Virus record (IMG/VR): IMGVR_UViG_3300043429_000130
Span: 32,001 to 96,000 of that record
Direction: 5' to 3' (one strand)
From: a virus
Length of the DNA: 64,000 bases
Below are positions 1-50,752 of the stretch, in pieces (positions within the stretch are counted from its first letter, which is position 1; the number at the start of each line of letters is the position of its first letter). Under the pieces are notes generated by a model, which ran no database searches, was not told the DNA's origin, and saw nothing but the letters and a program-made list of their open reading frames with translations. The position numbers were made by a program, and so were the translations under genes.

Positions 1-3000
1 ATATAGGACCACCTTGTTTTTTAATATACATATTGCCTGCTCCATAACCATCTGGTAATTTATTATTAAGAGAAAGGTTTAAAAGATACTTAGTCTTTTG
101 TTCAGGACTTATAAAAGGTGTAGATCCTACAGCTGCACCTACCATGTTATTAAAAGCATCTTCTGCAGATTCTCTTAGTTTAACTCCCCAAGGTCTAGTA
201 TCACTACCTTTCATTAATGTAGAAAGTTCATGGCCTGCTCCTAATGCATTTGCACCTAAGAATCCTGCAACTTGTGATAATATAGGTATATTTCCAAGTT
301 TATCTTGTATTGCTTCTGACGTATATCTACCAGCCATTGGATGTCTAAAGTTATCTAAAGGATCATCCTTTGGACCAAAGTATTCTTTAGATGCACTTAT
401 ACCATCTTTAACTGCTTTAGCCATAGGTCTACCAAGCCAACGATCTAAAGACTTTTCATAATCACGTAATGTATTACTAATACTATTTACTGATGTGTTA
501 GGTTTCTTACCTGCTACTTTACCAGCCAGTTGCATTTTTGGTAGATTAAACACCCCACCATTAGCAAACTCTTCTTTAGGCATAGGAGCTCTATATGTAC
601 TATCCATATACCTCATGAACTCTGGGTTACGCTTAAGCACATTATCTCTAATGTCAATAACCTGTTTACCATAAAGAGGATTCTTTCTTAGATCAATACC
701 TCCTTTAGGAACCTCTACTCCATATATCTTCTTCATCTTGAAGCCATGATAATCTGCCTCTGTAGAAGGAAATACTTTACCTAAACCATTATATACCTGT
801 AGACGTGTAGCTTCATCTTTAATCTTTAGTCTATCCGCATCTTTCATTTTAGAGTTGTAAGCACTAATGAAACTTTGGTAAGCATCTTCTTCTGGATTAT
901 CACTATGTACACCTTTTGTATGCCCTATATTATAATCTGTTTTTCCCCACTTAGTTTCTTGAAAACCCATAGCTGCAAGATTCATCATATCATTATAAGA
1001 CATGTTTTTTCTTTTAGCTTCTGTCAATAACTTACCTAAATCTTCAGAATCATAATCACCACTAACTAAATCTGAGTTAGGTCTAAGCGGTTTACCAGTA
1101 GTCATCATGACTTTTCTAGGGTCACGTATGCTTAATCTTTTAGGAGCTGAGGCAGGTGTTCTAACAATCTTAGGTTCATTAAAACCAAAAAACTCTTTAG
1201 CTTTTGCAGCCATAGTTGCCATAGCAGCTATAGTAGTAGGGTTTACAAAAGTTCCCCACTGAGCTTGAGGTAGATCATACTCACCACCTTCTTCTTTATA
1301 TACATTAAACAAGAAGTTTCTCATGCCATTCCATCCACCCATCTTAGGAGCTAGCTCAGACTGCATTCGTTGTAAATCATAATATCTAGGATCTACACCA
1401 AGTTTTTCTTGAGCAAGTTTAGAACCCATAGGGGTACTTAATCTCTGCTTTAATTTACTAGCAATAATATACTTTTGTTCAGGACTATATCCAGACGTAT
1501 CATCTGCTACAAATACATTAGGGTTCTGTTGAAAAAACTGTTTAGACGCTGCCATAGCTGCTTTCTTATCAGCTTTATCTAAAGGACTCTGCATCCAGTC
1601 ATAGTCAAAAGTTAACTGACCTGCAGCTTGTGCGGCATATTGTTTAGCATTTTCTTTATCCATAGCAGCCACCTGCTTAGCCCATGCATTCATATCTGCA
1701 TTAGCAGCTTTATTAGCAGCCGCAGCTTCTCTACCTCTAACTACCTCAGCTTTACATTTACCTGTTACAGGATCTTTTTCTTGATCAGGACAATCATAGA
1801 ATCCACCTACGTCATACTTGTTAACACTACCTCCACACTCATAGCATGGTTCACCACCATATCTTTTTTCTTTTTGACCGGCTATATTCATACCAGCATT
1901 GTATGCAGCATTACTTAGAATAAAAGGTATACGTGGATTTTCACTATATCTATTACGTCCAAAAAAAGCTTTAGCTCTTTGCCCAGCATAGTCACCAATA
2001 ATTTGAGGAACTCTAGATAAAGGATTACCTTTTACCATATAAATACTAGGTTGTTCATAAAGCCCACTAATAAATCTTCCAACATTTTCATCTGCTATTC
2101 TAGTCATTGGAAAATTTAAACCTGTTTTTTTATTAACTTCCAGTATAGGATTATCTAATGTAGGTTTATAATTATCTAAAAACTGTCTTAAAGAACCTTT
2201 GATAGTATTATCATTTTGAGCAGCATATGGTAAATCAAGTATAAGTTGTTGAGTTATACCATCTTTTTCTAATTGAGCAGCTCTTTGTAAAGATTCAGGA
2301 TTTCCTGTTTGTTTTAAAAGGCTAATACGATTTTGTAATTCTTGAGTATACTTAGGTGCATTAGGTAAAATACTTTCTATGTTTTCTGGCAAAGCATTAC
2401 TAATTCTTTTTCCTTTATTACCTGCCCAGTTTAACGGTTGAGTTTTTCCTGGATTAACTGCAGTAAATCCTTTACTTCTAGCAGCTTGTGTCCAAAATAA
2501 TGGAGCTGAATTTTTACTCATACTTCCATCAAAAGTAAATGCTCCTTTAGGTAGTGCAGCCATTTCTTGAGACATCATTTTAGCCACATCATCAGCAGGT
2601 ATATTAAAATATGAGTGACCAGTTACATCACCTTTTAAATAACCTAAATCAATAGCTCCAGCATTAAGTGCATTTTTTACTCTACCTACCTTACTAGTCA
2701 TTCCTGCTGTACCCTTATAAGCTGTAGTAGCTCCTCTTAATCCTCTAGAAAGTAGGTTAGTTCCTTGAACAGCTTCTGCTGCAAAAGGCATTGCTCCTAA
2801 AGCATGCATTCCTGTATTTAAAAAATCCATTCCACTTAAACTAAGTGGATCAGTAACTCCTCTATATATTATATCACCAGCACCTTTACCAAACTCTTTT
2901 GCTTCATTCACATAGAAAAAAGGATTAACCATATTAGCAGCTATATCTAAAGAGTTCTTTTTTCCTAACTCAAAATTATCTGGTATATCTCTACCTTGAG

Positions 3001-3328
3001 CTTTATAAGCTAAAGCTGTCATTGGGTTAGTAGCAATAGCCCAAGCTTTAGAAGCCATAGATTTTGGAGCAGGAGCTTGTCTAATATATCCCTGTCTATC
3101 TCTAGCAGCTTGATCAGCAGCACGTTTAGCTAAAACTTGTTTAGCTGCAGCGTCCTTTACCATTTGTGATCTAACAACAGCAGGATTAGGTATGTTATCA
3201 TACACAGGTTTTTCACTAACTGGAGGTTTAAACATCACTACACCAGCTTTTTGCATCTTCTGCAGGCCAGGAAGAATTTTATGTTCTACATTAGGCTGGC
3301 TCATTAAATATTGAAGTAACTTATTCAT
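1..3328 (-). CDS. Large virion cargo/ejection-type polyprotein, partial (>1100 aa, runs off the left edge)
   Basis: Manual translation from ATG at 3328 (MNKLLQYLMSQPNVEHKILPG...) stays open to position 1 (...NMYIKKQGGPI). It is absent from the ORF track because no stop lies in the window. It follows the muzzle gene, where crAss-like phages place cargo proteins. Confidence 0.8.
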   Translation of the reverse strand, partial: MNKLLQYLMSQPNVEHKILPGLQKMQKAGVVMFKPPVSEKPVYDNIPNPAVVRSQMVKDAAAKQVLAKRAADQAARDRQGYIRQAPAPKSMASKAWAIATNPMTALAYKAQGRDIPDNFELGKKNSLDIAANMVNPFFYVNEAKEFGKGAGDIIYRGVTDPLSLSGMDFLNTGMHALGAMPFAAEAVQGTNLLSRGLRGATTAYKGTAGMTSKVGRVKNALNAGAIDLGYLKGDVTGHSYFNIPADDVAKMMSQEMAALPKGAFTFDGSMSKNSAPLFWTQAARSKGFTAVNPGKTQPLNWAGNKGKRISNALPENIESILPNAPKYTQELQNRISLLKQTGNPESLQRAAQLEKDGITQQLILDLPYAAQNDNTIKGSLRQFLDNYKPTLDNPILEVNKKTGLNFPMTRIADENVGRFISGLYEQPSIYMVKGNPLSRVPQIIGDYAGQRAKAFFGRNRYSENPRIPFILSNAAYNAGMNIAGQKEKRYGGEPCYECGGSVNKYDVGGFYDCPDQEKDPVTGKCKAEVVRGREAAAANKAANADMNAWAKQVAAMDKENAKQYAAQAAGQLTFDYDWMQSPLDKADKKAAMAASKQFFQQNPNVFVADDTSGYSPEQKYIIASKLKQRLSTPMGSKLAQEKLGVDPRYYDLQRMQSELAPKMGGWNGMRNFLFNVYKEEGGEYDLPQAQWGTFVNPTTIAAMATMAAKAKEFFGFNEPKIVRTPASAPKRLSIRDPRKVMMTTGKPLRPNSDLVSGDYDSEDLGKLLTEAKRKNMSYNDMMNLAAMGFQETKWGKTDYNIGHTKGVHSDNPEEDAYQSFISAYNSKMKDADRLKIKDEATRLQVYNGLGKVFPSTEADYHGFKMKKIYGVEVPKGGIDLRKNPLYGKQVIDIRDNVLKRNPEFMRYMDSTYRAPMPKEEFANGGVFNLPKMQLAGKVAGKKPNTSVNSISNTLRDYEKSLDRWLGRPMAKAVKDGISASKEYFGPKDDPLDNFRHPMAGRYTSEAIQDKLGNIPILSQVAGFLGANALGAGHELSTLMKGSDTRPWGVKLRESAEDAFNNMVGAAVGSTPFISPEQKTKYLLNLSLNNKLPDGYGAGNMYIKKQGGPI

Positions 3329-19329: not shown

Positions 19330-22300
19330 TTATTTATTTTTTAGTTCTTTAATCTCGTTCTTTAACTCTTCTATCTGAGCTTGTTGTTCCTTTATACCTT
19401 CTATTAATAAAGGTACAATCCTATCATACTTTACAGTAAGATAATTTTCACCAGTCTTAGATATAATTTCTCCTGTTTCAGGTACACCTTGCATATCAAA
19501 TGGAGCCAATGAAACAGCTTGTGGTAAAACTGCTTGAATTTGCTGAGCAGATACACCAGCTTGTTCTTTTTCATTAGTATAACCAAGACTACGTGCTAGT
19601 TCATTTTCTACATATACAAATCCTTCTAATGATTTAATCTTTTGTATAGCATCTGTAATAATGGTTATCTTAGTTTTTAATCTTTCATCAGAGTAATACG
19701 CTGTAACATCTCCAGTACCATAATAGTTACCACTACCATAGTTTCCACCACCTGCACTAATTCCTGATAAATAAGAACCATTTATTACTTGGTGATGCCA
19801 CGTAGCTCCATTAGATAAATTCCAAATTGGACCATATGATTCAGATAGTCTAGCTCCAGTACTATTTCCAGTACTTGCACCAGAACCCGTTAAAGCTAAT
19901 ACACCGCCAAAGTTAAGTCCACTAATAGTTGCATTATTTGATAATGTAGATGCTGAACCTGTTATGTTTATTCCCCAAGTACCAGAAGCATTACCACCAG
20001 TAAGTGTAGGAGAATAAGAGTTATAGTTACTTGAGTGTAATGATTGTACTGGAGTAATTGATACTTTTTTAGAAGAAGAAGGTTCAGTACTATCACTTAT
20101 AGATGTTACTCTATTTGAAGCAGAGCCTCCAGCTTCTCTTACTTTTACGCTAAAAGAGTTCCAGTAACTAGCTCTTGGCCACCAAAAAGCTAAATTACCG
20201 CCATAGTTAAATATTCTTATTGGTCCAGGAAAATAGCCACCATAGGATAATGCACCAACATTTATAAAAGTATCTGCATATATATACCCCTCTAATAATA
20301 AAGCAAAAGGTCCTGCACCACTACCATAGCTTTTACCTGTAACTTCCATTACAAAAGAATCACCGTATGTTACAGAGGCATTGATGTTTGTAACTACTAA
20401 TGTACCATTAGGAAAATCACTGCCTGAATGATATGGAACTACATTCTGTAAAGACCATCCACCTAATTGTGCAGCAGATCCAGAAATACTAATACCCCAA
20501 GTGCCATCAGCTACACCACGTATAGAGTTTTTAACATGAGCAAGATTAGATTTTCTAGACCATCCATCACCATTAGAAGTTATAAAACTACTAATAGTAG
20601 GATTTTCATTTTCAGAAGTATTAAAGTTAACATGGTTTGCATAGATGTACCCATTAGCATCTCTTTGTACAATATAACTAGCAATAATACTACTACTTAT
20701 ATTAGAAGCTGATATTGGACCATTAGCTGTTATAGCTCCTGTATTAGCAAGTGTAATTACAGGGGTTCCACCTCTATTAGCTGAAAATATTCTAACCCCG
20801 TATGAAAATCTCATTGAGCAATATGCGTCATTAAGATCTACAATATCACCATCGTCAGCTAGAATAATACCTCCTCCTGTTGTGTTACTTGATGAAACTG
20901 TTATATTACCTGCAATAGATAAAGCACCAGATATTGAACCACCAGCTGTTGGTAAATAAGGACCTCCTGTTACATAACCAGGCCCATTAGTAAGTTGATT
21001 GAGATTGGTTAAATTACCACTATGCCAAACATCTGCATAAGAAGAATAAGCAGTTCCTGAGCCAAATGACTGTTGCCATATTCTCATTCCAATACCACTT
21101 TTAAGAAACATCACCAAGTTATCAGAACCTCCAGAACTATCAGAATAAGAACGTAAGTGTAGATAATCAGCATAAGGAGCACCATCATTATTAGCCCAAG
21201 ATGTAAATCCAAATCTTAGTTCAGCTGCATTATCTTCAGAAGGAGATATTGTTCTATTATCTCTAGAAGATAGTCTAGCTGAAGCACCAGATATTGTTGC
21301 AGAAGAAGTAATGTACCCAGATGGATTAGTACTATTATATGGAGTATAACCAAGAGCATTTGTTACATTAGCTGATGTAATTCCAGTAATATATCCTGGT
21401 CCATTACTTAATTGATTAAGATTTGTAAGAGTTCCTGTTCCCCAAACTGTTCCTGTATTGTGATTTAAAGTTACAGTACCAGAATTCATTTCAAACTTAA
21501 GAACATTAATAGTATCGTGATAAATACCTATATGTGAGTAACCGCTTCTATGAAGTGCAATACCTGCAGTTCCAGAAGTTGCTCTTACTTCAAACTGTAG
21601 TCCACTATAATAATTAGAAGGAGTTGCAATGTTTCTATCAAGCATTAATGTAGAAGTAGTTCCTGAACCACCACTCATTACAATGGCTGTTCCAGTGCTT
21701 GCTCCTCTACTTGTTACAGAAGCCAAAGTATCAGTTTCTGTGTATCCAGTTATATAACCATTAGGATTGGTAGCATTGTAAGGAGTATATCCTAAAGCTG
21801 TTGTTACATTACTAGAAGTAATCCCTGTTATATACCCTGGTCCGTTTGTAAGCTGGTTTAAGTTTGTTAAACTAGCAGCCGTCCATACATTACTACCTTT
21901 ATACTGAAACTGATTTATATTTACATAAAGAAGTTCAGCTCCTGTAGTAGTGACTTTAAGACCTTCGTCTCCATTATCTGTTAGAGCAATAAGTAGATTA
22001 GACAATGCTCTACCGCCACTTGCTCCATCACCAGTAGATTCAAATGTTATAGAAGCTCCATCTGTGTTAGCTGCCCAAGTAAGACCTGCACCACTAGAAC
22101 CAAAAGACAGATTTCCTGTCATTGAATCACCTGCTGTATTAACCCATACATCAGCTACAGATGTTAAGTAACCTTGAGAAGTTACCCAAGACTGAGTTGC
22201 ATATCCAGATAAAGCTGAAGAAGTTATATAACCTGCACCATTGGTAAGTTGGCTATTGTTAGTAATACTATTTGTAATAGTAGTTGTTCCACTACTTGTA

Positions 22301-23892
22301 GAAACACTTATTCCAGAACCAGCTACTATTGATAATATACCTGTATTAGATATGGATAGTGAGCCTCCAGATGTACTTACACTTATTCCGCTACCTGCCG
22401 TGGCAGATAACAATCCTGTATTACTAATGCTTAATGTTCCACTTGATGTGCTTACGCTAATACCACTTCCGGCAACTCCTGATAATAAACCAGTGTTAGA
22501 AATACTTAAAGTACCACCAGAAGTGCTGACACTAATTCCTGAACCAGCAAGTGCAGATAGTATACCTGTATTACTAACAGTTACAGTTCCTCCACTTGTA
22601 GAAGTACTAATCCCAGATCCTCCTACTACAGATGATACACCTGCAGTAATACTCCAAGATCTATCTGCTGATAAATCATAACTAGTACCGTTGATAGTTA
22701 ATGTACGAGTAGTAGGTACACCACCTAATCCACTTAGTGTATACACAGGTAATGTTTGCCAGGTCTTATCACCACGCCAATACTGAGCAGTAGTTCCTGC
22801 TGTAATAGCTGGTTCTTTAGTACCAATTAACGTAGTAATTGTTGCACTAAAGTTAGCATCATCTCCTAACGCAGCTGCTAGCTCATTAAGAGTGTCAAGT
22901 GTACCTGGTGCACTATCTATTAAGTTAGAAATACTTGTATCTACATACGTTTTTAAAGCATAGTTAGCTCTTTCAGATGTCCATACTGGATCAGTCTCTG
23001 TATATGATTGCAAGTATCTAGCATCAGCTGCAGTTTTAGTATAATAGTTAACCTTCTCTGAAGTCCATACAGGATCTGTTTCTGTGTACGACTGCAGATA
23101 TCTAGCATCCGCTTGTAACTTTGTGTAGTAGTTTATTTTCTCTGAAGTCCAGATAGGATCAGTTTCTGTAAAAGAAGTGAGGTAGCCAGCTAATGCATGA
23201 TTACCCCAAGAGTAAGCACTGTTCCAGTTAGTAATGTTTGTAGTGGTAATAGCTTTAATATGGCTAGCCACTGTAGGATCTGTTTCAGTGAAAGATGTTA
23301 AGTATCCTTCTACAGAATGATCTCCCCAACCAAAAGCTGTATTCCAATTGGCTGAGTTATTAACTATACTAGTTCCCCATGATGTTCCATTAGATAATGG
23401 TATACCAACAGATGGGTAAACCATTGAGTCTATACTAAATATTCTATTAGCAGATAGATCAGCTGTCTGCCCGTTAATAGTAATAGTCCTTGTTACAGGT
23501 ACATAGTTTCCTACAATACCAGATCCATACTGTGGTATATTGATTATACCAGTAGTGCTATCATAAGTAGCCGGACCAGATGTATTAAATGTAGTAACAC
23601 TTAAAGCTTTTCTAGCTCTACTATCTGTAAAGTATAAAGCCTGGCCTTCTGTAACTAAGTCTGTGTTATAATCTCCCTGGCGGGCTACTACAGCACCGGT
23701 TCTACCAAATACAGAACTAACAAGATTACCACCACTCTGTGTGATAAGCTGTGCTATAGAAGCAGATGATATCCTACCTCCAGGTCCGGGTACAAGAACT
23801 TTATTCTGTGTACCGGTAGTAGCAGGTATAGAAGCTACAGATACACCTGCAGGAAAATAAGCATTACCATAACTATCTACTTGATAAGACAT
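19330..23892 (-). CDS. Long tail fibre 3 with C-terminal intramolecular chaperone (peptidase S74-like)
   Basis: 1520 aa, Gly/Ser/Thr-rich repeats. GDVTAYYSDERLK...GVSAQ...YDRIVPLLIEGIKEQQ. Confidence 0.85.
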   Translation of the reverse strand: MSYQVDSYGNAYFPAGVSVASIPATTGTQNKVLVPGPGGRISSASIAQLITQSGGNLVSSVFGRTGAVVARQGDYNTDLVTEGQALYFTDSRARKALSVTTFNTSGPATYDSTTGIINIPQYGSGIVGNYVPVTRTITINGQTADLSANRIFSIDSMVYPSVGIPLSNGTSWGTSIVNNSANWNTAFGWGDHSVEGYLTSFTETDPTVASHIKAITTTNITNWNSAYSWGNHALAGYLTSFTETDPIWTSEKINYYTKLQADARYLQSYTETDPVWTSEKVNYYTKTAADARYLQSYTETDPVWTSERANYALKTYVDTSISNLIDSAPGTLDTLNELAAALGDDANFSATITTLIGTKEPAITAGTTAQYWRGDKTWQTLPVYTLSGLGGVPTTRTLTINGTSYDLSADRSWSITAGVSSVVGGSGISTSTSGGTVTVSNTGILSALAGSGISVSTSGGTLSISNTGLLSGVAGSGISVSTSSGTLSISNTGLLSATAGSGISVSTSGGSLSISNTGILSIVAGSGISVSTSSGTTTITNSITNNSQLTNGAGYITSSALSGYATQSWVTSQGYLTSVADVWVNTAGDSMTGNLSFGSSGAGLTWAANTDGASITFESTGDGASGGRALSNLLIALTDNGDEGLKVTTTGAELLYVNINQFQYKGSNVWTAASLTNLNQLTNGPGYITGITSSNVTTALGYTPYNATNPNGYITGYTETDTLASVTSRGASTGTAIVMSGGSGTTSTLMLDRNIATPSNYYSGLQFEVRATSGTAGIALHRSGYSHIGIYHDTINVLKFEMNSGTVTLNHNTGTVWGTGTLTNLNQLSNGPGYITGITSANVTNALGYTPYNSTNPSGYITSSATISGASARLSSRDNRTISPSEDNAAELRFGFTSWANNDGAPYADYLHLRSYSDSSGGSDNLVMFLKSGIGMRIWQQSFGSGTAYSSYADVWHSGNLTNLNQLTNGPGYVTGGPYLPTAGGSISGALSIAGNITVSSSNTTGGGIILADDGDIVDLNDAYCSMRFSYGVRIFSANRGGTPVITLANTGAITANGPISASNISSSIIASYIVQRDANGYIYANHVNFNTSENENPTISSFITSNGDGWSRKSNLAHVKNSIRGVADGTWGISISGSAAQLGGWSLQNVVPYHSGSDFPNGTLVVTNINASVTYGDSFVMEVTGKSYGSGAGPFALLLEGYIYADTFINVGALSYGGYFPGPIRIFNYGGNLAFWWPRASYWNSFSVKVREAGGSASNRVTSISDSTEPSSSKKVSITPVQSLHSSNYNSYSPTLTGGNASGTWGINITGSASTLSNNATISGLNFGGVLALTGSGASTGNSTGARLSESYGPIWNLSNGATWHHQVINGSYLSGISAGGGNYGSGNYYGTGDVTAYYSDERLKTKITIITDAIQKIKSLEGFVYVENELARSLGYTNEKEQAGVSAQQIQAVLPQAVSLAPFDMQGVPETGEIISKTGENYLTVKYDRIVPLLIEGIKEQQAQIEELKNEIKELKNK
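22250..22640 (-). repeat. Tandem 75-bp (25-aa) repeats GILSALAGSGISVSTSGGTLSISNT, about 5 copies
   Basis: Visible in the translation of fibre 3. Confidence 0.85.
22960..23310 (-). repeat. Repeats of YLxSxTETDPxWTSE (about 28 aa), 3-4 copies
   Basis: Visible in the translation of fibre 3. Confidence 0.8.
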
Positions 23893-46790: not shown

Positions 46791-48983
46791 CTATTTCATA
46801 TTTTTAAAGGGGTTACGGTGTCCTTTAGAACCGAGTGTACTACCTTTAGAGCCACCGATATGTCTAAAGGGGCTCCAATTTAATTTACTAAATTTCTGGG
46901 AGTTATCCAAGTTTTCTTTTGTAACTTCTACACGTTTAGTCAGTCCTCTGTTACTTTGTTGGACCTTTGCAAAGGCTATAAGGGCACAAAATGCTACTAA
47001 CCTATCCACGTTTAGTCCATCTCTGTAAGCTTGCATTTCACGTAGAAGCATAATATCTGGTATACGTTCTGCTCCGTATATTGTTTTTACAATGTCTCCG
47101 TTCTCTTTAGTCTCATGATCAAGCTCTTCTTTTAAGAATTCAATCCCATAAGACAACACTGTACCCTTGAATAGTGTACCCACGTTCTTCCATCCATATT
47201 CTTGGAATACGTTACGGTTGGCACCAATGTCTTTTAAGAACAAGATCATATCTTTTGGTACAAGATATCTCTGCTTTTTCTTGCTTATCATATACTGAAT
47301 GAATAAAGCTACGTTATTTTCTACAACGGTCCAAGCATTATACCATTCTATAAGAAGCTCTAGACGTTCATGGGTTTTGTTAAGATCATCAAAACGTCCA
47401 CACCATGATGCTACAATCATGTCACGTTCTATCTCGTTTTTAACCCTACCGTTACCGTCATCTTTAATAACCTCCACTGGATTCTTATATACGTATATAG
47501 AACATAGTGATTCAGATGTAGTGGTCTTTCCTTCTCCAACAGGGTCCACAGAAGCATAGTACATCCCAAATGGTGGATCTTTATGAGGTCTTTCGTAGAT
47601 ACAGATCACTCCCTCTTTGTCTTCAGTCTTTTTAGATATAGGAAACTCCATGATAGGAATCTTTCTAGATGGTTTGTCTACTATCTTACCCTCAGCATTT
47701 CTAGAAAGCTCTAAGTATTCTACAGAATATTCTTTATCCTGAATACGTTGCATCTGTTTAGCAACCAAGTGTGGAGGGAACACACTCACTTTACGGGTAG
47801 CAAAAGCTTCTTCAATACAACGTGGTTGCTGAGATACAGTAAGTTGATAAGCTGCCGGGTCTAAATCCCTTTTCATCTTCTCAAATTCTTTCTCTAGAGC
47901 CTCTAAAGCTTCCTCCACCTTAGAGTTGCCCCACTGATCAATATAAGGGGGCATAGACCACTGTTCTGGAATAAATAGACCAGTTATACCAATTGTTCCG
48001 TCCTTGTCTACAAGGCTACTTTCTACCCCATAGAAGCCATTCTCTTCTGGGTGTAGGATATATTCCTTCATTGGCTCACACTGATCTAGATCACCGACTG
48101 ATCCAGCTGCAATAAACTGACCAGTGATCATGTGACCAGACTTAAGTGCTGGCTTCATAAATCCATACGTGTCATCCATCTTAGGTGCGATACCTGCTTC
48201 CTCATGAAAGAAGTATGTTACAGGTCCACCGACACCATGTGTAGGGTCTTTTTCAAAGGAGTATAGGTTGATCGTGGATTTCAAACCTTTATACGTGTCA
48301 CGACCACCTATCCTCACCTTAATCTGTTGCTGCCATGCCCCAACCTTGTCAGGCTCAGCTGGACGATACCAGGCTGTGTGTTCATTTAAGAAGTTCTTAT
48401 ATTCATTAAGAAACTTCCATGAGCCTTTCTCGTTTATATAATCTTTTAAAGAAGCCCCTATCTTTAATACAGCTCCTTCTTCAAACCAATATTGGTTGAT
48501 AAGCTTAGCCATATGGAAATAAGAAGAGGCTATCTGACGCTTCTTTAGAATAATAGCGTGTTTCCAGTGTAGTTCAGCTAAATGCTCATATAGAGCCATG
48601 TGATATTGTGCATCCCTCACCTTAGCAAAGTCAAACCTTTTCTCTTCTTTGTCATAAATAGGTAAGAAGTTCAACCACATATAGTAGTCTCTGCTTATAT
48701 ACCACTTTTCATCACCGTCTTTTACAATGATTCCATTACGGCATTTTGCTTTTTGGTCATTCCAGTAGGCAATAAAGTCTTTTGTCTTTACAGGAGCTGC
48801 ACAATAATATCCTTGTTTTTGAAACTTACGACCTTCTTCATTAAAGATCTTACTAGTTTCATTAAAGTTATACTTACCAGGCTCTTTAAAAATAAACAAC
48901 AAGAAGTCTCTAAACTCTTCTCTTGTATAGAAGGTGGTTACGTCCCATTGACCATTCTCGTATGTAGGTATTTCTCTAAACAT
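46791..48983 (-). CDS. terL: Terminase large subunit
   Basis: Walker A-like LKKRQIASS, Walker B FFHEEAG, nuclease YASVDP and C-terminal NVDRL. Confidence 0.9.
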   Translation of the reverse strand: MFREIPTYENGQWDVTTFYTREEFRDFLLFIFKEPGKYNFNETSKIFNEEGRKFQKQGYYCAAPVKTKDFIAYWNDQKAKCRNGIIVKDGDEKWYISRDYYMWLNFLPIYDKEEKRFDFAKVRDAQYHMALYEHLAELHWKHAIILKKRQIASSYFHMAKLINQYWFEEGAVLKIGASLKDYINEKGSWKFLNEYKNFLNEHTAWYRPAEPDKVGAWQQQIKVRIGGRDTYKGLKSTINLYSFEKDPTHGVGGPVTYFFHEEAGIAPKMDDTYGFMKPALKSGHMITGQFIAAGSVGDLDQCEPMKEYILHPEENGFYGVESSLVDKDGTIGITGLFIPEQWSMPPYIDQWGNSKVEEALEALEKEFEKMKRDLDPAAYQLTVSQQPRCIEEAFATRKVSVFPPHLVAKQMQRIQDKEYSVEYLELSRNAEGKIVDKPSRKIPIMEFPISKKTEDKEGVICIYERPHKDPPFGMYYASVDPVGEGKTTTSESLCSIYVYKNPVEVIKDDGNGRVKNEIERDMIVASWCGRFDDLNKTHERLELLIEWYNAWTVVENNVALFIQYMISKKKQRYLVPKDMILFLKDIGANRNVFQEYGWKNVGTLFKGTVLSYGIEFLKEELDHETKENGDIVKTIYGAERIPDIMLLREMQAYRDGLNVDRLVAFCALIAFAKVQQSNRGLTKRVEVTKENLDNSQKFSKLNWSPFRHIGGSKGSTLGSKGHRNPFKNMK

Positions 48984-49273
48984 TATTTGTTACCATCTAC
49001 ACTGGTTATCTTATTAATATGCTCAAGATTACCTTTACCTCTATGTAGTAAATACAACAGTGTATTTATGTCTTTACTACGCAGAATACCTTTCATTTCA
49101 TAGTTACTCCAGTAACCAGTGTACAAATGTCTAGGAATAGCATTCCATAAACTAGTGTAAGGGTTAAAATGAAAAACCCAGTCTTGCATAAACTCATACT
49201 TCACATCTGATTGTTCCTCCACTGGAGAAAACTCCTTGATGTTTTCATAATCTGTGTAAACTTCTTGTTTCAT
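48983..49273 (-). CDS. Hypothetical protein (96 aa)
   Basis: ATG at 49273 (MKQEVYTDY...) has an A-rich leader. The longer track ORF runs through the RNA elements. Confidence 0.6.
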   Translation of the reverse strand: MKQEVYTDYENIKEFSPVEEQSDVKYEFMQDWVFHFNPYTSLWNAIPRHLYTGYWSNYEMKGILRSKDINTLLYLLHRGKGNLEHINKITSVDGNK

Positions 49274-49297
49274 AATATTTTTATTTAATAATTTAGG

Positions 49298-49400
49298 AAA
49301 GCAGAAGATGGGTGCGTGGACATCTGCTTTTACAACTGGCATTTCTAACCGATCACGTACGGCCCTTTCTACAGTTAAAAGTACGTTATTCCAGTCAACC
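49298..49400 (-). ncRNA. Pseudoknotted structured RNA directly downstream of the tRNA-like gene
   Basis: Helices GACTGG/CCAGTT and ACGTAC/GTACGT, a crossing helix TTTTAACTG/CGGTTAGAA, then an AAAGCAGA/TCTGCTTT hairpin. Confidence 0.5.
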
Positions 49401-49405
49401 TTTTG

Positions 49406-49575
49406 CTGTAGAGGGTGGACTCGAACCACCAAGGTGAGATTCAATTGATAACACAACGCTTGCAAGCTGGTGGTCTACCCCATATTATCAATCTATTTCT
49501 GCATCACCGCCCACGAGACAGGTGGGTACGTTTGCCAAGGCCATAACTGAGACAGCCAAATTTCGTCACTCTACA
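49406..49575 (-). tRNA. Atypical 170-nt tRNA-like RNA, anticodon GUC (Asp), with D-loop insert and giant variable arm
   Basis: Acceptor TGTAGAG/CTCTACA plus G73, T-arm GGTGG-TTCGAGT-CCACC, anticodon arm CCCAC-CTGTCTC-GTGGG. No encoded CCA. Confidence 0.7.
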
Positions 49576-49581
49576 ATTTTA

Positions 49582-50232
49582 CTACTTGTTATACTCATAT
49601 TCTAGTATCTTACCAACAATATCACTACGATGGTTTTCTTTTAGTTTGATCCACTTAATCTCACTAATCTTTTTAGATAGTTCAATAGCATAAGTCAAAC
49701 CTGTAACACTATGTTTAGTGTCTTGTTGTTCATTATCACCGTTAATAATAATCTTACCTGTTTTACCAAGTCTAGTTAGAATAGCCAGCATCTCAGTTTT
49801 AGTGAGGTTTTGTGCTTCTTCTACAACTAAGATATCATCTATAGTTTTACCACGGATAAACTGTACAGGATAAGCAATGATCTTCTCATCTTTTACCATA
49901 GACTGAATCTTCACTTTGTCTGCACACTTTACTAGATTCTCCTGAAAAGCTTCTAGATAAGGATTAAACTTCTCATCTAGAGATCCTGGGAGGAATCCTA
50001 AAGAGCTACCTACCTCTATAGTGGCACGTGTTACAAATATTTGGTCACACTGCTTCTTATTTAGGAAATCTAGTGCACTTAATGCACATACTAAAGATTT
50101 ACCACTACCAGCTCTACCTGTAACTATTACAATCTGGTTTTCAATAATTAAACGTCTAGCTTCTCTCTGTTCATCATTAAGAGTTACATGATATTTAATT
50201 TCTTGTTTACGTTCTCTGTTTGGCTCTCTCAT
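49582..50232 (-). CDS. phoH: PhoH-like ATPase
   Basis: GRAGSGKS Walker A, LGFLPG, RGKT, VEEAQN, LTRLG, GD..QQD and HRS motifs. Start is probably the ATG at 50232. Confidence 0.9.
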   Translation of the reverse strand: MREPNRERKQEIKYHVTLNDEQREARRLIIENQIVIVTGRAGSGKSLVCALSALDFLNKKQCDQIFVTRATIEVGSSLGFLPGSLDEKFNPYLEAFQENLVKCADKVKIQSMVKDEKIIAYPVQFIRGKTIDDILVVEEAQNLTKTEMLAILTRLGKTGKIIINGDNEQQDTKHSVTGLTYAIELSKKISEIKWIKLKENHRSDIVGKILEYEYNK

Positions 50233-50239
50233 GTTTTTA

Positions 50240-50752
50240 CTATTGGTCATACGCTAAGTTTTGTCCTCCTCTAACTTGAGACTGTTGTTCTTCCATTAAG
50301 TCTCTGTACACTCCCTTAAAACTTTGTCTAACAGAGTCAAATCTTTCTGCAATTCTAAGGATGGCTGTAGCAGATCCGTCTCTGCCAGATGTCACTTTTT
50401 CTGTAGCCATAAAGCCGGCCATGTTATCTAGTGCAATCTTAATACCCTGGTATGCTCTATATGTAGGAGTTTCGTACATTTTCTTACACATACGTAATCC
50501 ATTTATTACAAGATCATCTTCTGTAGAAAAATCACCGTCCACTTCTGCTAGAATGATATCTTCTTTATCTGTTTCAGGAACATCAAAGAAAGGATTTAAA
50601 TCTGGGTTAGGACATGTCATGTAGAATAAGTAAGAATACACCTTAGTAGATTCATCACCATACTCATCCATAATATCTTTTAAAAACTTTAAGGTGTAAC
50701 AGTGTTCACTAGGAACCACCTTACCATTAGCTATATCAAATAATCTTACCAT
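50240..50752 (-). CDS. Conserved phage protein (terminase small subunit candidate)
   Basis: 170 aa helical protein upstream of terL; function inferred from position only. Confidence 0.45.
   Translation of the reverse strand: MVRLFDIANGKVVPSEHCYTLKFLKDIMDEYGDESTKVYSYLFYMTCPNPDLNPFFDVPETDKEDIILAEVDGDFSTEDDLVINGLRMCKKMYETPTYRAYQGIKIALDNMAGFMATEKVTSGRDGSATAILRIAERFDSVRQSFKGVYRDLMEEQQSQVRGGQNLAYDQ

What the first reader, a model, noticed from the sequence alone, without database searches (positions are those of the whole stretch)
49298..49400. Pseudoknotted RNA immediately 3' of the tRNA-like gene
Seen: five nucleotides after the discriminator, the minus strand reads GGTTGACTGG-AATA-ACGTAC-TTTTAACTG-TAGAAAGGGCC-GTACGT-GAT-CGGTTAGAAA-TG-CCAGTT. 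This gives an H-type pseudoknot (ACGTAC/GTACGT crossed by the 9-bp TTTTAACTG/CGGTTAGAA) enclosed by GACTGG/CCAGTT, followed by a hairpin with a C-rich loop (TCCACGCACC). Known: gut phages use HDV-like theta ribozymes to trim tRNA 3' trailers. The helix order here does not fit HDV-like, twister, pistol or hammerhead topologies as far as I can see. Inference: a possible new tRNA-associated ribozyme or structured leader controlling the terminase operon.
Basis: partly seen in the sequence, partly recalled or inferred. Interest (0 to 1): 0.7.

Follow-up and report, generated by a model that had tools for sequence, protein, structure and literature searches.

The report
Small phage RNA gene beside tRNAs
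The stretch is a real, folded small RNA gene of an uncatalogued family that unrelated freshwater phages carry among their tRNA genes; its fold is well supported, the proposed pseudoknot is not, and its job is unknown.

Summary
The sequence is exactly as described (minus strand, 49401-49292). These are the enclosing helix P1 (7 bp), the variable inner hairpin P2 and the 3' hairpin P3 with the C-rich loop. The crossing 9-bp helix that would make a pseudoknot is not supported: it shows no compensatory change, and its two strands occur without each other in relatives.

The element is not tied to this tRNA-like gene or to the terminase operon. Pattern scans found it in 60 + 18 + 19 viral stretches and at least 118 metagenome stretches. 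The carriers include crAss-like phages (this window) and T4-like phages with Gp23 capsids.

In the T4-like phages it sits inside tRNA/tmRNA arrays. It is always on the tRNA strand, typically 3-4 nt after one tRNA and 4-7 nt before the next. Rfam 15 has no match.

Best reading: a stand-alone small RNA of about 105 nt, cut out by tRNA-processing enzymes. The genomic analogue is T4 rnaC/rnaD, without detectable homology. Function is unknown. A ribozyme role is untested and lacks positive evidence. A role as leader of the terminase operon is unlikely.

Earlier notes of this scan flagged look-alike stretches on other genomes.

The parts
49399..49401 (-). P0 5' strand (AGG), possible 3-bp closing helix with CCU 49295-49297
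   Evidence: AGG/CCU in 153 of 165 distinct contexts. The 12 variants are 4 G.U, 2 G-C, 1 U-A and 5 mismatches. Support is weak.
49391..49397 (-). P1 5' strand (UGACUGG)
   Evidence: Covaries with 49333-49339. RNAalifold predicts 7 bp.
49387..49390 (-). J1/2 (AAUA)
   Evidence: AAU is nearly invariant in the 40-sequence alignment. Other subtypes have GGAAU.
49355..49386 (-). P2 variable hairpin: stem ACGUAC 49381-49386 / GUACGU 49355-49360, loop 49361-49380
   Evidence: The stem sequence is replaced by other complementary stems in relatives. The hairpin is absent in L153 and replaced by an insert of about 85 nt in L144, L154, L155 and L158.
49340..49354 (-). J2/1 single strand GAUCGGUUAGAAAUG with the family-wide core AG(A/U)AAUG
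   Evidence: AG followed by A or U in 133 of 134 unique sequences, at positions the search patterns did not fix.
49333..49339 (-). P1 3' strand (CCAGUUG)
49298..49330 (-). P3 hairpin: stem AAAGCAGA 49323-49330 / UCUGCUUU 49298-49305, 17-nt loop UGUCCACGCACCCAUCU 49306-49322
   Evidence: Stem pairs 5, 6 and 8 covary. Loop consensus is UGUCCAC-NNNN-CCAUCY. It is not a terminator by the scan (0 found).
49292..49297 (-). 3' tail CCUAAA (CCU = P0 3' strand); the similarity to copies in other contexts ends here
   Evidence: An RNA-library contig matches 49292-49401 and then runs on unlike the window at both ends. Alignments.
49372..49380 (-).
   Evidence: No covariation, and the strands are separable in relatives. 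Kept only as an optional contact of this subtype.
49406..49575 (-). Upstream neighbour: giant tRNA-like gene (acceptor UGUAGAG/CUCUACA, anticodon arm with loop CUGUCUC, long variable arm, T-arm). Not part of the element.
   Evidence: Compact versions in relatives are called tRNA-Asp(GTC) by ARAGORN (6 contexts). Sequences. The window copy is missed by ARAGORN.
48983..49273 (-). Downstream neighbour: conserved 96-aa ORF ahead of the large terminase gene (46791-48983)
   Evidence: tblastn finds it in most terminase loci. No Pfam or PHROG family matches. TerL matches phrog_6681.

Best explanation
The stretch 49401-49292 (minus strand) is a gene for a discrete small RNA of about 105 nt. It belongs to an uncatalogued phage RNA family.

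Fold:
- a 7-bp helix P1 that encloses an optional, fast-changing hairpin P2 and a conserved single strand (..AG[A/U]AAUG);
- two bases further on, an 8-bp hairpin P3 with a conserved 17-nt loop (UGUCCAC....CCAUCY);
- perhaps a 3-bp closing helix (AGG/CCU) that would make a three-way junction.

Inferred biogenesis: the RNA is transcribed together with the tRNA or tRNA-like gene in front of it. It is set free by the enzymes that trim tRNAs: a cut at the 3' end of the upstream tRNA and, in tRNA arrays, RNase P at the next tRNA. In this window no tRNA follows, so the 3' end would be made in the A/U-rich 18-nt spacer before the small ORF.

Inferred action: the two conserved unpaired segments are the working surfaces and contact a partner common to different hosts. 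A component of the tRNA or translation machinery is my guess.

Shown: the unit, its fold, its strand, its spread and its position among tRNA genes. Inferred: the processing and any action in trans.
For: Discrete unit:
- The similarity to other copies starts at (A)GGUU and ends at CCUAAA whatever the flanks.
- A contig from an RNA library matches 49292-49401 and then continues unlike the window on both sides.

Fold: P1, P2 and P3 covary. G.U pairs fix the strand.

Spread:
- 60, 18 and 19 stretches in IMG/VR.
- 1 stretch in 185,579 species genomes.
- No match in 50,697 GenBank phage records.

Carriers are unrelated phages. 0 of 5 other carrier records have a relative of this TerL, and 3 of those 5 have a T4-type Gp23 capsid gene.

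Position (165 distinct contexts):
- 63 have a tRNA or tmRNA ending within 12 nt upstream (gaps mostly 3-4 nt). A further 31 have the giant tRNA-like gene and 12 another copy of the motif.
- 61 have a tRNA starting within 12 nt downstream (gaps 4-7 nt).
- 347 of 347 ARAGORN genes within 400 nt lie on the same strand.

Independence from neighbours:
- 9 of 60 crAss-like copies are separated from the tRNA-like gene by other sequence, an inserted ORF where examined in L012.
- 4 of 60 are not followed by the small ORF.
- Relatives L011 and L013 lack the element.

RNA libraries: contigs of X15 and X20 (two studies) cover the element.
Against: - No read-level data. All runs were assembled contigs, so no RNA end, level or even transcription is shown.
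- Here the element lies only 18 nt before a protein gene, with no promoter or terminator found between. In this phage the RNA may therefore stay part of the mRNA leader.
- 58 of 165 contexts have neither a tRNA nor a copy of the motif within 12 nt upstream, and 93 have none downstream.
- No partner is known.
- All family members were gathered with exact patterns, so the invariance of the pattern positions is partly by construction.
Confidence: 0.6

Rival explanations
1. Passive punctuation element. It is a compact, closed fold placed between genes of a polycistronic tRNA transcript. It gives the tRNA-processing enzymes defined cut sites and protects the new ends, and it has no action of its own in trans.
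For: It is packed tightly between tRNAs (gaps 3-4 nt and 4-7 nt). A possible closing helix AGG/CCU would bring both ends together.
Against: A spacer would not need some 45 conserved bases. These include two unpaired segments kept across subtypes whose stems and inner hairpin have changed. Only one or two copies occur per array, although every tRNA needs processing.
Confidence: 0.2
2. New self-cleaving ribozyme that trims the 3' trailer of the tRNA in front of it, as theta (HDV-like) ribozymes are proposed to do.
For: It starts 2-6 nt after a tRNA in 61 of 63 tRNA-preceded contexts. It has many conserved unpaired bases. Theta ribozymes lie within 5 nt of phage tRNA ends (PMC10879173, passages read).
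Against: No ribozyme family matches, even at E up to 10. The supported helices are nested, not crossed. The hairpin that varies is the first one, and no C is available in J2/1 for an HDV-type active site (my reading). 58 of 165 copies have no tRNA in front. Neighbouring tRNAs in the same arrays manage without it.
Confidence: 0.1
3. Cis-acting leader (attenuator, antiterminator or translational operator) of the small-ORF/terminase operon.
For: In 56 of 60 crAss-like copies it lies about 20-30 nt before the small ORF start.
Against: The same RNA sits in tRNA arrays of T4-like phages with a tRNA as its next gene. Relatives with the same operon lack it. No terminator-like site was found. The alternative pairing seen in single-sequence folds is lost in the second subtype.
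Confidence: 0.07
4. DNA-level site (packaging signal or promoter) next to the terminase genes.
For: It is a unique copy in the genome, beside the packaging genes.
Against: Compensatory changes and G.U pairs point to a folded single strand of one polarity. It occurs away from terminase genes in other phages.
Confidence: 0.03

Closest known systems
Phage T4 small stable RNAs rnaD (species 2, 119 nt) and rnaC (species 1, 139 nt)
   Same: They are small RNAs of unknown function encoded on the tRNA strand directly after a tRNA gene and in tandem. In NC_000866, tRNA-Arg is followed 1 nt later by rnaD, then 6 nt later by rnaC. Tandem copies of the present family occur likewise. That they are processed with the tRNAs is recalled, not checked.
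   Different: There is no detectable homology. The covariance model gives no match on rnaC or rnaD; the best match anywhere in the 7-kb stretch is 12.6 bits, elsewhere. rnaC ends in a T-arm-like GGTTCGAATCC, which the present RNA lacks.
Theta ribozymes (minimal HDV-like ribozymes beside phage tRNAs; PMC10879173)
   Same: They are small structured RNAs placed within a few bases of the 3' end of phage tRNA genes (passages read).
   Different: No Rfam ribozyme hit. Helices are nested rather than a double pseudoknot. The carriers here are freshwater phages, not gut phages. Cleavage is untested.
GOLLD RNA (Rfam RF02032)
   Same: It is a phage-borne, lake-derived structured RNA found among tRNA genes. 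One carrier locus (L148) has a GOLLD match about 200 nt upstream, with a tRNA between.
   Different: GOLLD is several times larger. The element is not part of the GOLLD match and occurs without GOLLD in 14 of the 15 loci scanned.
sRNAs made from tRNA external spacers, for example the 3' ETS of glyW-cysT-leuZ in E. coli (recalled)
   Same: An RNA released as a by-product of tRNA 3' processing that then acts in trans.
   Different: That one is a short, unstructured sponge of a cellular operon. This is a conserved fold carried by phages. The resemblance is recalled and not tested.

Membership tests
   0 of 9 pairs have compensatory change, and 7 of 9 depart only by unpaired cells. 31 of 68 GGTTAG copies lack the loop strand, and 4 of 41 loop copies lack GGTTAG.
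HDV-like / theta ribozyme | Match to Rfam HDV-type models | tested here: not met
   No such hit at E up to 10 on the element or on two copies in L147.
HDV-like / theta ribozyme | Nested double pseudoknot (P1 crossed by P2, a conserved P3/L3, a catalytic C at the start of J4/2) | tested here: not met
   Threaded by eye only. The covarying helices are nested, the first hairpin is the variable and dispensable one, and the conserved strand GGUUAGAAAUG holds no C.
HDV-like / theta ribozyme | Self-cleavage at the 5' edge | not testable with these tools
   Only assembled contigs of RNA libraries were available.
Hammerhead ribozyme | Three-way junction with CUGANGA and GAAA core strands | tested here: not met
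   Junction strands here are U, UA and none. No Rfam hammerhead hit.
Any Rfam 15 family | Score at or above the family's gathering threshold | tested here: not met
   0 matches in the window. In 15 other carrier loci only tRNA, tmRNA, GOLLD and a group I intron matched, none on the element.
T4 rnaC / rnaD | Sequence and structure similarity | tested here: not met
   cmsearch with all filters off on the T4 tRNA region gave no match on either RNA.
T4 rnaC / rnaD | Small RNA gene directly after a tRNA gene, on the same strand, in a phage tRNA cluster | tested here: met
Intrinsic terminator | G+C-rich hairpin followed by a U run | tested here: not met
   0 terminator-like sites in 49150-49750. The tail is UUUCCUAAA, and tRNA genes follow 4-7 nt later in 61 of 165 contexts.
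Canonical tRNA | Cloverleaf found by ARAGORN or the Rfam tRNA model | tested here: not met

The most novel reading that the evidence does not exclude
The family is a new class of functional RNA that phages of unrelated lineages exchange. It would be either a self-cleaving ribozyme of a new fold or a trans-acting RNA that binds and redirects a universal part of the host tRNA-processing or translation machinery. Either would explain why about 45 bases stay fixed in crAss-like and T4-like phages alike.
Probability: 0.12. Interest if true: 0.85.

Novelty: new variant of a known kind. Interest (0 to 1): 0.58.

Why it matters
Small stable RNAs in phage tRNA clusters have been known since T4 (rnaC, rnaD) and are still unexplained. 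This family is compact and has a well-supported fold. It is very strongly conserved and occurs in at least two unrelated phage lineages in lakes.

That makes it a tractable handle on what such RNAs do. The same 85-170 nt RNA can be made in vitro and tested for cleavage, for processing by RNase P and RNase Z, and for binding partners.

It also corrects the local annotation. The gap before the terminase operon of this crAss-like phage holds two separate RNA genes, not one tRNA with a regulatory pseudoknot.

Tried and rejected
Coding: an ATG inside the element is in frame with the small ORF here. Relatives have spacer indels that change the frame, and third positions are as fixed as the others. 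Rejected.

Promoter or terminator: the scan found no minus-strand sigma-70-like site and no terminator. By eye I saw no Bacteroidota-type -7 motif inside the element.

Riboswitch-like switch: single-sequence folds often pair UGACUGG with UCGGUUA instead of P1. That partner is absent in the second subtype and in CCTAGA-type copies. Rejected.

HDV-like, hammerhead, K-turn and T-loop readings were tried by eye only. None fitted.

Loop-to-loop or 5'-GGUU-to-loop contacts could not be tested because the bases do not vary.

Folding energy of the inner segment against shuffles was weak: mean z -0.64, with 5 of 59 below -2. The case for P2 therefore rests on compensatory stems, not on energy.

My script for the crossing helix of the second subtype mixed hairpin stems with the crossing helix, and only 10 of 50 sequences beat their shuffles. 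I rely instead: 7 pairs, 87.8% paired, 2 pairs changed on both sides, 12 sequences. That is modest support for a real pseudoknot in that subtype, not in the window's.

RNA libraries: summed contig depth was 22-263 over 49284-49568 and 0-5 on the flanking genes in X15 and X20. These are assembled contigs. Depth cannot rank regions, conserved words add up over many phage strains, and DNA may be present. I draw nothing from the uncovered flanks. X16 covered only the far end, and X18 only the tRNA-like gene.

Weak model hits in the window at 2742-2847 and 22184-22337 (about 20 bits) have mostly broken pairs. Rejected as copies.

The ORF inserted between the two RNAs in L012 and the 96-aa ORF have no Pfam or PHROG family.

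The catalogue of 8,495 candidate IMG/VR RNAs (PMC10690425, passages read) may list this motif. Its tables are supplements that I could not open. Paper searches turned up no description of it.

My note says 11 tmRNA loci. The table shows 10.

Full report
SETTING. The window is part of a 119.6-kb IMG/VR virus record. Its genes on the minus strand run PhoH-like (49582-50250), a 308-nt gap, a 96-aa ORF (49273-48983), large terminase (46791-48983), portal and major capsid. The terminase is about 25% identical to those of crAss-like and Flavobacterium phages. DNA runs that hold the stretch are labelled freshwater or lake water. ARAGORN finds no tRNA in the window or in the genome. Rfam finds nothing at gathering thresholds.

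THE GAP HOLDS TWO SEPARATE MODULES. Module A (49575-49406) is a giant tRNA-like gene. Module B is the finding (49401-49292).
- With nhmmer, A is in 24 and B in 10 of 81 terminase loci, the window's own copy included.
- B is absent from relatives that keep A and the operon (L011, L013).
- B is separated from A by other sequence in 9 of 60 crAss-like copies; where I examined it (L012) this is an inserted ORF.
- In L004 and L098 a true tRNA-Leu follows B.
- A covariance model built from 40 unique copies found no copy in 71 further crAss-like terminase loci.

STRUCTURE.
- P1: in the 40-sequence alignment P1 is fully paired, with two pairs changed on both sides.
- P3: the same holds for P3.
- RNAalifold recovers P1 and P3 unaided and extends P1 to 7 bp.
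- In 134 unique family sequences P1 never mismatches: pair 1 is G-C 110, A-U 11, G-U 13; pair 3 is C-G 28, U-A 101, U-G 5. Pair 5 of P3 takes all four Watson-Crick forms.
- P2 keeps a stem while its sequence, length and even its presence change.
- A 3-bp closing helix AGG/CCU is nearly invariant and gets only weak support.
- G.U pairs fix the polarity, as does the fact that all 347 neighbouring tRNA/tmRNA genes lie on the same strand.

It is longer than chance in this one sequence (58 of 5000 shuffles). It has no compensatory change, and its two strands are found without each other in relatives. A second subtype of the family does carry a crossing helix of similar topology with some covariation. 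A pseudoknot in the window's subtype therefore remains possible, but it is not shown.

THE FAMILY.
- Exact-pattern scans gave 60, 18 and 19 IMG/VR stretches.
- 185,579 species genomes gave one stretch, a 5.8-kb MAG contig.
- GenBank phages gave none.
- Outside the crAss-like group the element lies in tRNA arrays, next to tmRNA genes in 10 of 15 loci scanned. One locus has a GOLLD match and one a group I intron.
- Five carrier records have no relative of this terminase. Three of the five have a T4-type capsid gene.
- Tandem pairs of diverged copies occur.
- The family-wide conserved parts are 5' (A)GGUU, P1, AG(A/U)AAUG, RUA, the base of P3, the loop UGUCCAC....CCAUCY, and CCU. Caveat: several of these positions were fixed by my search patterns.

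POSITION. In 165 distinct contexts:
- 63 have a tRNA or tmRNA ending within 12 nt upstream, with gaps mostly 3-4 nt.
- 31 have the giant tRNA-like gene upstream, and 12 another copy of the motif.
- 61 have a tRNA starting within 12 nt downstream, with gaps of 4-7 nt.
- 58 have nothing recognised upstream and 93 nothing downstream.

This is how a gene inside a tRNA operon looks. It is also how T4 places rnaD and rnaC after tRNA-Arg. The model does not match those RNAs.

RNA LIBRARIES. Contigs from two metatranscriptome studies cover the element. One of them carries it with different flanks. Contigs show neither ends nor levels.

READING. The most likely reading is a stand-alone small RNA released by tRNA processing, with two conserved unpaired surfaces for an unknown partner (0.6). 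The alternatives are a passive punctuation fold (0.2), a new self-cleaving ribozyme (0.1), a leader of the terminase operon (0.07) and a DNA site (0.03). No Rfam ribozyme matches at E up to 10. I could not fit an HDV-like or hammerhead core by eye.

EARLIER NOTES OF THIS SCAN. Several notes on other genomes share words with this stretch: e1-6136845, e1-6150872, e1-5732648, e1-6145819 and e1-5836766. They describe it in similar terms. I tested the arrangement they describe on my own loci, not on theirs.

Noticed in passing
window 49406-49575 (minus): Giant tRNA-like gene missed by ARAGORN. It has a Leu-type scaffold, an anticodon loop NNGUCUC invariant in relatives over a covarying stem, a 21-nt insert in the D-loop and a very long variable arm. 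Compact versions of about 100 nt in relatives are called tRNA-Asp(GTC). An isolate-type transcriptome contig (X18) matches 49420-49571 without a difference.
   Followed up: partly
L145, L159 (just 3' of the element); L144, L154, L155, L158 (inside its P2 position): A second conserved module of about 85 nt (CAGCAGGGGAYTTGTAAACCCC...ACAAACACAGGTCARAACTGATG). It holds a hairpin whose loop resembles a tRNA-Thr(UGU) anticodon loop. It occurs either nested in the element's variable hairpin or directly after it, and also in an RNA-library contig.
   Followed up: no
L143, L147-L151, about 60-90 nt upstream of the element: Another conserved untranslated stretch (..ACCAGAGCATGACTTGGATGGCGAC..AAAAATTGTGGGTAGTT..) lies between a tRNA-Met or tmRNA gene and the element.
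   Followed up: no
L012 1865-2572 and like loci (L083, L095, L096, L099, L100, L120, L125): An ORF of about 235 aa with no Pfam or PHROG family is inserted exactly between the giant tRNA-like gene and the element.
   Followed up: partly
window 2400-3200: An 800-nt stretch without any ORF of 60 aa or more. It gives a weak hit to my model (20 bits) with mostly broken pairs.
   Followed up: partly
L152 5655-5878; L148 12127-12546: A group I intron (96 bits) and a GOLLD RNA (229 bits) lie in T4-like or unclassified phage contigs that also carry the element.
   Followed up: no
L147 3701-3847 and 11 other sequences (alignment A3): The second subtype of the family has a larger inner domain. A crossing helix joins the hairpin loop and the strand just 5' of ..AGUAAUG, and it covaries (for example UGUUGGU/ACCAACA, UGGUAG/CUACCA, GAUGAU/AUCAUC).
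   Followed up: partly
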